From contig OX597836.1 of assembly GCA_951406725.2 (NCBI GenBank), positions 18,848,001-18,912,000 of the forward strand: a DNA stretch of 64,000 nt, written 5' to 3'. Each line of letters starts with the position of its first letter. Position 1 is the first letter of the stretch. This DNA is from Octopus vulgaris. Taxonomy: Eukaryota. The notes beneath the pieces were generated by a model. The model was not told where the DNA came from. It saw only the letters and a program-made list of their open reading frames with translations, and searched no databases. The position numbers were made by a program, and so were the translations under genes. Positions 4,619 through 34,505 of this stretch are shown in pieces.

Positions 4619-4741
4619 GCCACAGCGTTTCTTCTCGATAAACTTCACATTATTCTCGCCAAATCTCCAAAGGAAGAAATCAAGTCTGAAGTACTTCCCA
4701 TGGTCTTCAACACACTGGATTCTAATTCCCTACAGGGCCAG
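4619..4741 (+). CDS. SCYL2: SCY1-like pseudokinase 2 (SCYL2-like), internal exon A, HEAT-repeat region
   Basis: Acceptor ttcttatgcAG (4617-18), donor GTatgg (4742). 123 nt, phase 0-0. Encodes ATAFLLDKLHIILAKSPKEEIKSEVLPMVFNTLDSNSLQGQ, resembling the SCYL2 segment recalled as LLLTKTPPDEIKNSVLPMVYRALE...Q. Confidence 0.88.
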
Positions 4742-5522: not shown

Positions 5523-5559
5523 TATATAATTTACATCTAATATAGAAATAAAATTTTTC

Positions 5560-6095
5560 GAAAAAAATTCTCTCGATGGTCAGCATTAAGTTTGAATTTT
5601 GGTCTTTCCATTAAGTATAAGGAGATGCTGCAATTTGTTCTTCCACACTTTGTCACAGTTGGGTTGGGGATTTGCTTATATTTTCGTTCCAGTGAGGATT
5701 CGTTTGAACGTTTTGGGCTACCTTTTGCTTTTGATGATTTGGTATGTTTCCATATTTTTTTTTTTTTCATTTTTTCATCTTCAAGTACAATGGGGAGGGT
5801 TTTTTGAATGAGGTCAAATATTTCAGTATTTCTGGGATTGAAGGTTGACACATATGGTAAAATATTTTTCTTTGTTTTGATTTTCATTTTCCTTAGTTCC
5901 TGGATATCAACATGTTTTGCTCTGTCCATTCCATTGGTGATTACGCTCAGTGGGAATGCCCTTCGCATGAATATGTTTTTAAGTTCTTCCCGTCTTTGTT
6001 CAGGCTTAGAAGGGTTTGACACTATTGTACAAATTCGTTTTGCCTCATTAAACGGAATATTCAGTTTGGTGCGTTTAGGATGGGATGATGTGAAC
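5560..6095 (-). mobile_element. Penelope-like element fragment (RT thumb/linker, a different PLE lineage)
   Basis: SSHPKRTKLNIPFNEAKRICTIVSN...ILPYVSTFNP...KCGRTNCS: SxHP..IP....R...I.S thumb motif and the start of the Zn-finger linker. Confidence 0.75.
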
Positions 6096-6478
6096 AAGAT
6101 ACACACACACAGATATAGCTACATATATATATATATGTGTGTGTGAGTGTGTGTGTGTGTGTTTGTGTGTACACACATATACATATACAAATATAAATAT
6201 ACATATGTATGTATGTATATATGTATATATATATAACAGGTATTGAGTACATTTTCATACACATGAGAATATATATAAACATATATATATGCGTATATGA
6301 GTGTGTTCCACTTCTACACTTTTCCTATAATCTGTGTTTCTTCTCTCTTACAACACCACCACCATCATCATCAACATTATCACCACCAACACCACCACCA
6401 CCACCACCACTCTCATAACAACGTTGGATAACAATTATGATGTCGCGACACAACTACTATGACGACTACCACCGCCAG

Positions 6479-13729: not shown

Positions 13730-14250
13730 GGCAGAATCTTTAGAGGGTCGAAAAGAGTGCTTAACATCATTCTTTCCAGCTCCTTACCTTCTGAGTTCAA
13801 ATTCCGCCGTGATTAGCTTTGCTTTTCATCCTTTCCGGGTCTATAAAATAAAATAAAAATTAGTTAAATAGTAGACGATAAAATAAAGGGTCGAAATGAG
13901 TGCTTAACAGCATTCATTCCAGCTCCTTACATTCTGAGTTCAAATTCCGCCGTGATTAGCTTTGCTTTTCATCCTTTCCGGGTCTATAAAATAAAAAAAA
14001 TAGTTAAGTAGTAGACGATAAAATAAAGGGTCGAAACGAGTGCTTAACATCATTCATTCCAGCTCCTTACATTCTGAGTTCAAATTCCGCCGTGATTAGC
14101 TTTGCTTTTCATCCTTTCCAGGTCTATAAAATAAAGAAACTAGTTAAGTAGCAGACGATAAAATAAAGTACTAGTTAGGTTTGACGTAATTGCCAAGCTC
14201 TCTCTCTCCCCACAAAATTTCAGGCTTTGTGCCTATAGTAGAAAGGATTA
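13730..14250 (+). mobile_element. Nin-domain SINE variant with three ~140-bp tandem internal units
   Basis: agggtcgaaa...ttctgagttcaaattccgccgtgattagctttgcttttcatcctttcc...gacgataaaataa repeated three times. Confidence 0.8.
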
Positions 14251-16945: not shown

Positions 16946-17004
16946 CACGTTTGTGCGTGTGAGTGTATGTGTGTGCATGTGTATATACACGTTTGTGCGT
17001 ATGA

Positions 17005-17040
<36 letters not shown>

Positions 17041-17041
<1 letters not shown>

Positions 17042-17189
17042 TAATTTATTATATAGAAGGAGCTTCTACAGGACTAGTACTGTTTCATTCAAGAGAAATC
17101 TTCAGGAAGCTCTGTCTGAGCTTCCTGAAGATTTCTCTTGAATGAAACAGTACTAGTCCTGTAGAAGCTCCTTCTATATAATAAATTAA
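17041..17189. repeat. Perfect fold-back palindrome: 72-bp arms, 5-nt loop
   Basis: 17041-17112 is the exact reverse complement of 17118-17189; loop tgtct. Confidence 0.95.
17118..17170 (+). ncRNA. Type I hammerhead ribozyme (mirror copy on - strand at 17060-17112)
   Basis: gagcttc CUGAAGA tttctcttgaat GAA ACAG tactagtc CUGU A gaagctc. Stem I 7 bp, short stem II (ttc/gaa), stem III ACAG/CUGU, cleavage triplet GUA ending at 17163. Confidence 0.75.
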
Positions 17190-17454
17190 TTTTACTCTGC
17201 TATGTATTGAGTACCTTACTTACTGTGGTTAACCCCGAATCAACCCGGGACCTACATATATATATATATATATATATACACGTTTGTGCGTATGAGTATA
17301 TATATATAGAGAGAGAGAGAGATAAGGAGGGAGAGGGAGAGAGAGAGGGAGAGAGAGGGAGGGAGGGAGGGAGGGAGGGAGAGGGGGAGACATGTATAGA
17401 GAGATGAGAGAGACAGGGAGAGAGAGAAACAGAGAGACAGACAGACAGACAGAC

Positions 17455-18706: not shown

Positions 18707-19689
18707 CGTAAATGTCGAACGATGAGAATGATTGCTCAACACTGCAGTAGTGGATAAAATTTCTTTATTTGTGTATTAAGGCTACCATTAGTTTCCCGTT
18801 AAGAAAAATATCTTAATATCTTAACAATTTTTCAAGCTGACTACGTGTTTGTCTCCATTTTGGTTGGAAACACGAAAATTCTCGGAAATTCACAAAAACA
18901 GTCTCGTAAAAAAAATTAAAATGCCCTTTGATTTCTTGTTTTCTTTACGGGACGTTTTTTGTGAATTCCCGAGAATTTTCATGTTTTCATTCAAAACGGA
19001 GACGAACGCCATTTCCCTATGTATTCGGCTTGAAACATTGTTAAGATATTACGATATTTTTCTCAACACAAAGCTAATGGTCACCTTAGTACACAAATAT
19101 AAATTGCAGTAAACCAATTCAGAAAAATCACTTGTGTCAGGACATGTACTGTGAAGGCATTCTTTCTATTGGGGAGGGGAACCTGAAATTTTAGCAGAGA
19201 GGATTTGACGATTACATAGATCCTAGTGTTCAACTGTTATTTGTTTTATCGGCTCCGGAAAGAGAAAAGGCAAAAGTCGAACTCAGCGGAATTTGAACTC
19301 AAGAGCGTAAAGTGGACGAGCATGCTAACGATTTTGCCAGCCCACCATCTTAATAATGATCCTTTCTACTATAAGCAGAAGGCCTGAAATATTTTGAAGG
19401 AGGGGTATAGCCGATTACATCGACCTTATTACTCAACTGATACTTATTTCGTTGACTCCAAAAGGATAAAATGCAAAGTCGACTTAAAGACGAACGTAAA
19501 TGCAGCTAAGCATTTTGACGGGCGTGCTAAAGATTCTGTCAGCTTGATGCCTCATGCACTTACTGTAAACTTATTGAGAGTGAGTGATATGCCTGTAGGC
19601 TGACAGTTCATTATTTTCCAGTATCTGTGGATTATTGGGTCGAGAGATCCAGTATTACGCAGACATTGGGTCATTGATATGGTTAAAAT

Positions 19690-20201: not shown

Positions 20202-20259
20202 GTGATTGTTTCACACTGAGGACGTTTAACATTCAGAAATCTAGGTCTGTGAATATCAC
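20202..20259 (+). ncRNA. Minimal type I hammerhead ribozyme-like motif
   Basis: gtgat..ttcaca CUGAGGA cgtttaacattca GAAA uCUAGg UC tgtgaa.atcac. Stem I 6+5 bp, palindromic stem III, weak stem II. Confidence 0.6.
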
Positions 20260-23746: not shown

Positions 23747-23879
23747 ATGAAGATCAACGCGCTGACCTGTATCAAGAAATTACTGGACAGTCTAGACAAG
23801 ATGATTATTCTAGACGAAGTCCTACCCTTTCTCACCGAGATCTCCTGTCAGGACGCTGAGGTGGTCATGAGTATCGTCG
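23747..23879 (+). CDS. SCYL2: SCYL2-like internal exon C
   Basis: (CT)n tract then cAG acceptor, GTaaag donor (23880). 133 nt, phase 0-1. Encodes MKINALTCIKKLLDSLDKMIILDEVLPFLTEISCQDAEVVMSIV-G, matching the SCYL2 motif N.L.C..K.L..LDK...LD..LPFL..I. Confidence 0.9.
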
Positions 23880-32559: not shown

Positions 32560-34505
32560 ACTAAAATGAACAAGACGGGTTATACATCTACATGATGTGT
32601 TGTGAATTTATGGAAAAAATCCCATAAACCTCAACAACTTCATATTTCATGAAGGTAAATATTGGACCAGGAAAGACACACCAGACTGTTTCGATGTACC
32701 CATGGGTGCACAAGATTCCGCAGAGGAAACCGATTTAGTCGGGATTTACCTACTACACCAACTTAAAGAAGAATTCTTTGAATTAGAGGGTGGACTTTGC
32801 CGGGACGACGCTCTATTCTTAGAAATACATCCAACAAAAAACCTGAACTGTACAAAAAGAGACTACACAATTTTTTTTAAAAAAAACCAAGGACTATCTA
32901 TTACCATTGAAAAAATAACGACTCTGTGAATTTCCTAGATACTAACTTCAATCTCAATACTTCCTCCCATCAGCCTTACCATAAACCTAACAATATCACC
33001 ACATATATAAACGCACAAAGTAACCATTCATATAACATAGAAAACCTGACCACTAACATAGAGAGAAGAATTAATCTTCATCTAATGAAGAAATATTTAA
33101 CAAACATAAAGACTACTATAACCTAGCACTTGAGAAGGCAGGATATAAATATGAAATTAAGTACAATAAAAACGACATCCTCAATACTAATAATACCAAA
33201 CCTTATCTTGAAATGAATAATGTAGATAATGTTAGTGAACCTAAGTCACCTGATGAATTAGTACACCCCATTAAGCATACAAAATCTCTCAATAATAGTC
33301 ATCAATATAAAAAAACTCTCAATAATTGTCATAAATATAACTTTAGCAAAAAACACTAAAATCACAACTAGATTAAACATACTAATATACTTAATCAATA
33401 CGAACACCATATCCATAACTTTACTAAAGGAAAAAAATATAAATTTTAGCAATTCAATTCCCACCTTACTAACCACACTAGTATTGATATTGATAAACCC
33501 AAGAATACTGACAACAAACACCAAAACTGTTTAATTGTAGATAAAAATAGGAACATTAAACCAAAAAACAGAAAAAATGAAAATAATCTAAACTCACCTA
33601 ATTCCTTCAATAATACACATAACCATAGAACTCAAATTGATATAGCTGAGAATAGAATAACAAAAAAGAAACCAATACCTTGTGTGAGAATAGCTGACCG
33701 CCCCCTCAAACACAATTCCAGTATAGAAAACAACAATAACACAACTTGGATTATAATCCCTTTTGCCAAACATCTAAAATCTAACTTTATCAGATCCATT
33801 AGAATGATAATTAATAAAAACTTTAAAAACTCTAAATAATGAAAAATATTTAATAATAAAAAAAATTTTGGATTTTCAGTTTTTGCAAATCTCTTTAGGA
33901 TAATCTCTACTTTTAGCCATAAGAAATTGGATTTATTCTTTAATAAAAAAAAAAACTACGTTAAATGTACCTAGTACCCCCAATAATCCTATAATTAACT
34001 ACTACTATAATGATAATAACCAGAACTTCATTATCCTTAATAAACATAGACATAGCACCTTGGTACCACCCAATAATTTAAATTGTAATTGTAGAGACTC
34101 AAATGCCTGTGTAGTAGATAGAAATTCCAAAATGAAAGAATTTGTATACCAAGCAACTATTATAACTCAGGACTCCTCTAAGTACATATACGAGGGTTGC
34201 ACGAAAAATTCTCTTAAATCGAGAATTTATAACCATACATCTTCTTTAAGGGGCCCAAGAAAAGAGAATAGCACAGGTCTATCGAAAAGAATTTGGCACC
34301 TGAAAAGAAGTAATATTGATTTCTCAATTTCTTGGAAAATCCTATCATCTGCTCCCTCTTACAGACATAATAATAAAATTCGTAGGCTGTGTTTGGAAGT
34401 AAGCTATGGCATAATGAAAATTAATGGAAATCTGGTTAATACTAGGGATGAAATAGTGTCTCCTGTAAACACATGACCAAATTTCTATTTATCAATCTTA
34501 AATAA
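32560..34505 (+). mobile_element. Penelope-like retroelement, Naiad-type: RT plus GIY-YIG endonuclease, decayed
   Basis: FDVPMGAQDSAE..DLVGIYLL, GGLCRDDAL, NFLDTNFNL..QPYHKPN..YINAQSNH; then CNCR...C...VYQATI...IYEGCT...KSRIYNH...TGLSKRIWHLK...SWKIL...LCLE...LVNTRDEI and, after a frameshift, SCKHMTKF. Confidence 0.9.

What the first reader, a model, noticed from the sequence alone, without database searches (positions are those of the whole stretch)
17041..17189. Ribozyme/anti-ribozyme palindrome: a complete hammerhead fused to its perfect antisense copy in a host intron
Seen: a perfect 72-bp-arm palindrome whose right arm folds as a full type I hammerhead (7-bp stem I, CUGAAGA, GAAA, stem III ACAG/CUGU, GUA site at 17163); the left arm gives the same ribozyme on the - strand. 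Known: Penelope-like elements carry hammerheads in their pLTRs and often have inverted pLTR segments. Inference: from either direction the antisense arm is transcribed first. The nascent SCYL2-like pre-mRNA would therefore form a 72-bp duplex that locks the ribozyme off, and unwinding or A-to-I editing could release it. This would be a self-silenced or conditional ribozyme cassette.
Basis: partly seen in the sequence, partly recalled or inferred. Interest (0 to 1): 0.85.

Follow-up and report, generated by a model that had tools for sequence, protein, structure and literature searches.

The report
Mirror-image stub of a Penelope transposon
This perfect DNA palindrome holding a self-cutting-RNA motif is one of an estimated thousand near-identical stubs of a known type of jumping gene, each likely built at its landing site from two short copies of the start of the element's RNA, so it is most likely a by-product of jumping and not a control switch of the host gene.

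Summary
The palindrome (72-bp arms, 5-nt spacer) and the type I hammerhead are real. It is a roughly 220-bp insertion of a young Hydra-clade Penelope-like retrotransposon (PLE) into a (TA)n tract of an intron. The genome holds 2,293 exact copies of its tail end; in an unselected 100, 41 are short head-to-head ribozyme palindromes. Arms end at two fixed sites (+68, +141) and meet at junctions that differ between loci. In 14 of 40 pairs the tail-less arm reaches further 5' than the tailed arm, which a simple fold-back cannot make: both arms were likely primed separately on the two nicked target strands. Short arms stop at the first base of hammerhead stem I, 29 nt below a TATA-like box, often with an extra G, which points to a capped, uncleaved RNA start (inferred). 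Cleavage in vivo is not shown: arm ends at the cut site were not clearly above controls. The duplex would mask the ribozyme, but as a by-product; nothing supports a conditional host cassette. The architecture is published, and this scan noted it before in at least 35 other genomes. Host-gene name SCYL2 is recalled, not tool-confirmed.

The parts
17041..17112 (-). Tail-less arm: inverted copy of element positions -1 (extra G) to +71, with a full hammerhead on the minus strand (+1 = window 17119)
17113..17117 (.). 5-nt junction filler, not in the parent; junctions differ between loci
17118..17118 (+). Extra G before +1 (mirrored at 17112); parent has T; likely a copy of the RNA cap (inferred)
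17119..17169 (+). Type I hammerhead of the element (+1 to +51): 6-bp stem I, 3-bp stem II closed by U.U, 4-bp stem III with 8-nt loop; predicted cut 17163/17164
17187..17259 (+). PLE tail (+69 to +141), present on one arm only; last bases merge with the TA tract
17007..17038 (.). (TA)n target tract, left flank
17256..17278 (.). (TA)n target tract, right flank
16982..17006 (+). 25-bp direct repeat, left copy; possible target duplication or older tandem repeat
17273..17297 (+). 25-bp direct repeat, right copy
4619..4741 (+). Host exon upstream (SCYL2-like by recall)
23747..23879 (+). Host exon downstream (HEAT-repeat-like; SCYL2-like by recall)

Best explanation
The palindrome is a minimal insertion of a Hydra-clade Penelope-like retrotransposon, likely made when the element's enzyme nicked both strands of a (TA)n tract, primed one DNA copy on each strand at two fixed sites of its RNA (+68 and +141), ran both to the RNA's likely capped 5' end at the first base of the hammerhead, and the two copies were joined head to head. 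Shown: family membership by sequence, two fixed arm ends, one tail per insertion, variable junctions, hard 5' boundary at +1, extra G, TA targets. Inferred: double priming, transcription start at +1, cap origin of the G, joining by annealing or end repair. The RNA copied was almost always uncleaved, since the arms span the cut site. In host pre-mRNA the hairpin would mask the ribozyme, as a side effect.
For: Copy number: 2,024 exact matches to a 28-mer, 2,293 to the 35-mer entering the tail, controls 0. Parent: the same 141 nt lie upstream (ATG at +183) of a single 713-aa frame with RWR, DKT, CxCX5C, YIG, CxxC and CxH, the Hydra signature of PMC8557442 section 11; atlas neighbours carry PF26215 and GIY-YIG. 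Ends: 76 of 106 arms end exactly at +141 (42) or +68 (34); 40 of 41 short pairs and 32 of 32 long pairs have one tail and one tail-less arm. Targets: of 72 short palindromes 67 have (TA)4+ after the tail and 71 before the other end. Census: of the first 100 tail arms on C1, 52 read through into upstream element DNA, 48 start inside the hammerhead (19 at +1, 43 within +1 to +14), 41 with an inverted partner. Junctions of 41 pairs: 25 microhomology, 11 filler, 5 blunt. Symmetry: tail-less arm further 5' in 14, tailed arm in 14, equal in 12 of 40. Extra G: 9 of 13 arms at +1 next to filler (p 0.001) and 3 of 3 solo arms joined to unrelated DNA; genome-wide G 523, T 2,020, A/C 621 with only 7 C in the first 100 listed. 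TATA-like box at -29 in both subfamilies. A second Hydra family (49% identical protein; 3,951 matches) has fixed ends 72 nt apart and 17 short pairs among the first 100 matches. In vitro precedent: a Poseidon PLE protein cuts and extends both strands, starts at two internal sites that bound the tail, and uses unprocessed RNA (PMC11167929). Contigs from 4 of 4 independent runs show loose ends at +1, one with the commonest palindrome junction.
Against: No RNA 5' ends were seen, so the start site and cap are indirect. The two commonest junctions are ambiguous: one could also be a blunt join at +3, the other a 3-nt-loop fold-back, and about half of the G-preceded arms belong to that class; three of the fillers are copies of the arm. 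71 of 72 pairs have both arms of one subfamily, so two RNAs drawn at random from the pool are excluded, and how one RNA or one source templates both arms is unexplained. AG at +1/+2 could be a splice acceptor, as an intron ends at helix I in Drosophila Penelope (PMC4209133). The tail (73 nt) is longer than the 30-40 bp described. No empty site or read spanning this locus was obtained.
Confidence: 0.8

Rival explanations
1. Same element, but the mirror arm is made by self-priming: one strand folds back and copies itself (or an antisense template is used), as proposed for Adineta PLEs.
For: PMC3846280 Discussion reads junction palindromes this way; 11 or so junctions of 41 fit a 3-nt-loop fold-back; 71 of 72 pairs share a subfamily.
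Against: In 14 of 40 pairs (11 by 2 nt or more after assigning the overlap) the tail-less arm holds 5' bases the tailed arm lacks while the tailed arm holds +69 to +141, so neither is a copy of the other; 9 of 41 junctions are zero-loop palindromes; one pair mixes subfamilies (L051).
Confidence: 0.12
2. The palindrome is a selected, conditional ribozyme cassette that controls the host pre-mRNA and is released by unwinding or A-to-I editing.
For: Intronic position, perfect arms, antisense arm first; the core is intact.
Against: Identical to the transposon over 141 nt and one of about a thousand such young inserts; energy gap 81 kcal/mol, 68 with every antisense A read as G; no feature sets this copy apart.
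Confidence: 0.04
3. The short palindrome is itself a mobile unit (retrozyme- or MITE-like) copied from a master palindrome.
For: A few junction types recur (9 of 41 identical zero-loop junctions); one locus has three tandem 155-nt hammerhead units (L028).
Against: Most junctions differ and both subfamilies give the same spectrum; short and kilobase-long inserts share the same two ends; retrozymes are defined by tandem units (bioRxiv 10.64898/2026.07.22.740005).
Confidence: 0.03
4. Assembly or library fold-back artefact.
For: This locus was not checked in reads.
Against: Asymmetric arms with fixed ends, different host flanks on both sides, extra G and filler, and junction contigs in independent runs.
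Confidence: 0.01

Closest known systems
Hydra clade of EN+ Penelope-like elements (PMC8557442; section 11 and supplementary files S1, S2 seen)
   Same: Single frame with C-terminal GIY-YIG, RW[K/R], DKT, CxCX5C linker, CxxC and CxH, (TA)n targets, canonical type I hammerhead with CUGANGAU...UGAA and often ACAG/CUGUA stem III; Penelope-13_HM is listed with an inverted 5'-truncated copy carrying an opposite-strand hammerhead.
   Different: Its hammerhead sequence matches none of those listed (the listed octopus family Hydra-1_Obim differs); loop III is 8 nt against 1-3; unit is longer (simple-repeat-rich 3' region); about 40% of insertions are only ribozyme plus tail.
PLE insertion architecture: inverted 5'-truncated pLTR, one-sided tail, TATA and Inr in the pLTR (PMC3846280, PMC8557442)
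   Same: Head-to-head inverted arms, tail at one end, palindromic junction, TATA box.
   Different: Tail is 73 nt, not 30-40; junction data here favour two primed copies of a sense RNA over self-priming on an antisense template.
Poseidon PLE of Anolis in vitro (PMC11167929)
   Same: Two internal start sites that bound the tail, both strands cut and extended, AT-rich target, unprocessed RNA used.
   Different: There the sites lie inside the frame; here both lie in the 5' leader, 42 and 115 nt before the ATG.
Paired opposite-strand PLE hammerheads (PMC4209133)
   Same: Dual hammerheads 100-700 bp apart on opposite strands were reported in Schistosoma.
   Different: Here the arms abut and the ribozyme has a full stem III.
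Non-LTR retrozymes
   Same: Type I hammerhead, short, non-coding, tied to PLE pLTRs.
   Different: Not a head-to-tail tandem; sequence is identical to the parent's leader.

Membership tests
Hydra-clade PLE | Single ORF, RT with C-terminal GIY-YIG endonuclease | tested here: met
   713-aa unbroken frame in L174, YIG at 603; atlas neighbours with PF26215, PF01541. Pfam scan of the two pieces of a frameshifted copy gave no relevant family.
Hydra-clade PLE | RWK motif and DKG changed to DKT | tested here: met
   RWR at 38 (RWK in the second family), DKT at 116
Hydra-clade PLE | CxCX5C linker; CxxC and CxH around the conserved E and N; no CX2-5CxxC | tested here: met
   positions 567, 667, 695; no CX2-5CxxC match
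Hydra-clade PLE | Canonical hammerhead in the pLTR | tested here: met
   same layout as supplement S2
Hydra-clade PLE | Insertion into (TA)n | tested here: met
   67 and 71 of 72
Hydra-clade PLE | Element generally under 3 kb | tested here: inconclusive
   Frame is 2.1 kb, but long arms carry a repeat-rich 3' region; full unit length not measured
Hydra-clade PLE | Placement in the clade on an RT tree | not tested
   No reference Hydra proteins were obtained
EN+ PLE insertion architecture | Inverted 5'-truncated copy and tail at one end | tested here: met
   40 of 41 short and 32 of 32 long pairs
EN+ PLE insertion architecture | Target-site duplication | tested here: inconclusive
   Hidden by TA tracts; non-simple flank repeats in 3 of 72, this locus among them
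Active hammerhead ribozyme | Self-cleavage after GUA | not testable with these tools
   Genomic proxy inconclusive
Active hammerhead ribozyme | G10.1-C11.1 pair typical of canonical hammerheads | tested here: not met
   U.U here, as in most listed Hydra hammerheads
Non-LTR retrozyme | Head-to-tail tandem units each with a hammerhead | tested here: not met
   Window copy is one inverted pair; tandem units in 1 of the 30 loci (L028)

The most novel reading that the evidence does not exclude
These stubs are a genomic record of how PLEs integrate: transcription starts at the first base of the hammerhead, one capped and uncleaved RNA source is primed twice on the two nicked target strands, and the two cDNAs are sealed through a self-complementary 4-mer placed at the RNA's very start (AGCT here, CTAG in the second family). 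That would explain inverted pLTRs and tails in one step, leave the ribozyme no part in making most insertions, and seed this genome with more than a thousand perfect 50-70-bp hairpins that are candidate substrates for RNA editing and small-RNA pathways.
Probability: 0.55. Interest if true: 0.5.

Novelty: new member of a known kind. Interest (0 to 1): 0.27.

Why it matters
How Penelope-like elements build their inverted ends, and what their hammerheads do, are open questions (PMC8557442 passages). This young, high-copy family gives hundreds of independent products that favour double priming on a sense RNA and name exact positions (+1, +68, +141) for a bench test. As a host regulatory device it does not matter: it is an ordinary insertion.

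Tried and rejected
Rfam scan of the window: no match at gathering score. Pfam on two frame pieces of L038: only an unrelated weak hit below cut-off. PDB sequence search with the upstream exon: 0 hits. Sequencing runs: no RNA holder listed; the four runs laid are contigs whose RNA label is a guess, so they say nothing on expression, starts or cleavage. Reads across this locus's own junction were not obtained. In vivo cleavage from the genomic record: 20 tail arms have a base other than A at +45; 10 of them begin at +46, 8 through the stem I homology and 2 with both arms ending there; 12 of 16 arms without G at +43 begin at TA|+46, one with both arms ending at +46. Controls: 9 of 20 begin at the TA at +36 (about 7 independent, one with both arms ending there) and 1 of 7 at +52. 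So the excess at the cut site is small and mostly explained by microhomology: rejected as proof, kept as a weak hint (3 two-arm cases, 2 untemplated insertions at the bond). Changes at +42 to +50 in 17 of 95 short arms against 3 of 102 read-through arms (p 0.0006; 2 arms skipped), mostly loss of G46 or G49: left unexplained; sequencing error in hairpins fits as well as an enzyme crossing a nick, and no such deletion reached 10% in the contigs. Splice acceptor at +2 as the source of the 5' boundary: disfavoured, since no constant upstream exon precedes the G. Look-ups of earlier findings by place and by sequence gave nothing.

Full report
Observation. The palindrome is as described: 72-nt arms, 100% complementary, 5 nt apart, far beyond shuffles and unique in the window. 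The right arm fits a type I hammerhead with the cut after 17163, mirrored on the minus strand. The ribozyme alone folds no better than shuffles (z -0.78) and Rfam finds nothing at gathering score. It lies between two + strand exons, 4619-4741 and 23747-23879; the second resembles HEAT repeats. That these are SCYL2 is my recall; an exon expected between them was not found. The genome is 2.8 Gb in 227 contigs; its repeats remind me of an octopus (recalled, not tested).

It is a repeat. A search with 17113-17256 gave 555 candidates, of which 40 were scored, all 99-100% identical, most with an adjacent inverted arm. Exact patterns give 2,024 matches for a 28-mer and 2,293 for the 35-mer that enters the tail. 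I number the element from +1 = 17119, the first base of stem I. In long copies the same 141 nt follow a repeat-rich region and precede an ATG at +183. One natural copy has an unbroken 713-aa frame (L174; a second subfamily copy in L175) with RWR, DKT, CxCX5C, YIG, CxxC and CxH. These are the marks of the Hydra clade of Penelope-like elements in PMC8557442 (section 11 read; passages), whose listed hammerheads share the CUGANGAU...UGAA layout and often the ACAG/CUGUA stem (supplement part 2 of 59 read; the other parts and figures were not seen and may list closer families). No tree was built.

Anatomy of insertions. Of 106 arms in the first 60 C1 loci, 42 end at +141 and 34 at +68; most others end within a few bases or stop early at a mismatch. 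Pairs have one tailed and one tail-less arm in 40 of 41 short and 32 of 32 long cases. Ends join TA tracts (67 and 71 of 72). The first 100 of the 2,293 tail arms (C1, to 97.4 Mb) split into 52 that read through into upstream element DNA and 48 that start inside the hammerhead, 43 of them within +1 to +14; 41 have an inverted partner by script. Scaled up, that is about 940 short palindromes (estimate; exact matches only). Two subfamilies, told apart at +34 and -2, both make them.

How the mirror arm forms. Junctions of 41 pairs are varied: 25 microhomology, 11 filler, 5 blunt, so each palindrome is made at its site. The tail-less arm reaches further 5' in 14 pairs, the tailed arm in 14, and 12 are equal. 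When the tail-less arm has 5' bases the other lacks and the other has the tail, neither can be a copy of the other; this argues against the self-priming reading in PMC3846280 (passages and Discussion read) and for two cDNAs. That fits the in vitro behaviour of a Poseidon PLE: both strands cut and extended, two internal starts that bound the tail, unprocessed RNA used (PMC11167929, parts 1-2 of 4 read). Against a simple two-RNA picture, 71 of 72 pairs are of one subfamily.

Why copies stop at +1. Few arms end just upstream of +1, a TATA-like box sits at -29, and a G replaces the parent's T at -1 in 9 of 13 arms beside filler (2 of the 4 others are one read-through locus) and 3 of 3 solo arms, as on both arms in the window. 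Genome-wide the base at -1 is T in 2,020, G in 523 and A or C in 621. Untemplated G at the 5' end of LINE-1 and SVA insertions is read as a copy of the cap (PMC4859970, two passages). So +1 is likely a capped start. Caveats: about half of the G arms are of an ambiguous junction class, and an intron ends at helix I in Drosophila Penelope (PMC4209133, parts 1-2 of 4 read). A second Hydra family in this genome repeats the pattern: 3,951 matches, ends 72 nt apart, 17 short pairs among the first 100 matches, 6 with the same junction offset at a CTAG.

The ribozyme. Almost all arms span the cut site, so templates were uncleaved (or religated). About 22 of some 2,300 tail arms start at +44 to +46, which is not clearly above a TA control at +36; three loci with both arms ending at +46 are a weak hint of occasional cleavage. 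Losses of G46 and G49 are enriched in short arms but may be sequencing error. In host pre-mRNA the hairpin would bury the ribozyme by about 81 kcal/mol, and by 68 if all 24 antisense A are read as G (a rough stand-in for inosine). Masking is thus a consequence of head-to-head geometry and needs no host function.

Artefact. Reads over this locus were not obtained. Fixed asymmetric ends, varied junctions, distinct flanks, and contigs of 4 of 4 runs with loose ends at +1, one showing the commonest junction, make an artefact unlikely for the family.

Known and new. Inverted truncated pLTRs with a one-sided tail (PMC8557442, PMC3846280) and opposite-strand hammerhead pairs (PMC4209133) are in print; retrozymes are tandem (bioRxiv 10.64898/2026.07.22.740005, part 1 of 5 read). 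My searches (open-licence library only) found no paper on ribozyme-only PLE palindromes, a start site at stem I, or double priming as the source of inverted pLTRs; subscription papers are not covered. This scan already holds 294 notes with these words in at least 35 genomes, several with the same reading; I saw them after forming mine, they gave me PMC3846280, and they are not independent evidence. Verdict: a new member of a known clade and a known architecture in miniature, with useful mechanistic detail; interest 0.27.

Noticed in passing
L176-L181 (G000), loci L202-L231: A second, larger Hydra-clade family (727-aa frames, many unbroken; 3,951 hammerhead matches) with its own hammerhead, two fixed ends 72 nt apart and short palindromes joined at CTAG.
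   Followed up: partly
L028:1190-1640: Three head-to-tail units of hammerhead plus tail plus 19 further bases behind an inverted arm: a third priming site near +160 or template jumps; retrozyme-like.
   Followed up: partly
L051: The only pair of 72 whose two arms belong to different subfamilies.
   Followed up: no
L156, L170, L246; L158, L160: Both arms end exactly at the predicted cut site (three loci); untemplated bases exactly at the scissile bond (two loci).
   Followed up: partly
window 20210-20253 (+): A second hammerhead-core-like site, in unrelated sequence; stem II looks degenerate.
   Followed up: no
window 32606-32926 and 33904-34473 (+): Remnant frames resembling RT and linker/endonuclease of another Hydra-like PLE (by eye).
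   Followed up: no
window 5540-6118 (-): Remnant frame resembling the thumb region of another PLE type (recalled likeness).
   Followed up: no
window 18766-19099: Nested imperfect inverted repeats (79 and 69 nt arms, about 85%), MITE-like.
   Followed up: no
window 13760-14170: Three tandem copies of about 140 bp.
   Followed up: no
G000 hits: Eight or more near-identical copies share an open frame of 506 aa that ends before the endonuclease, that is a shared frameshift in an amplified sub-lineage or a shared sequencing error.
   Followed up: no
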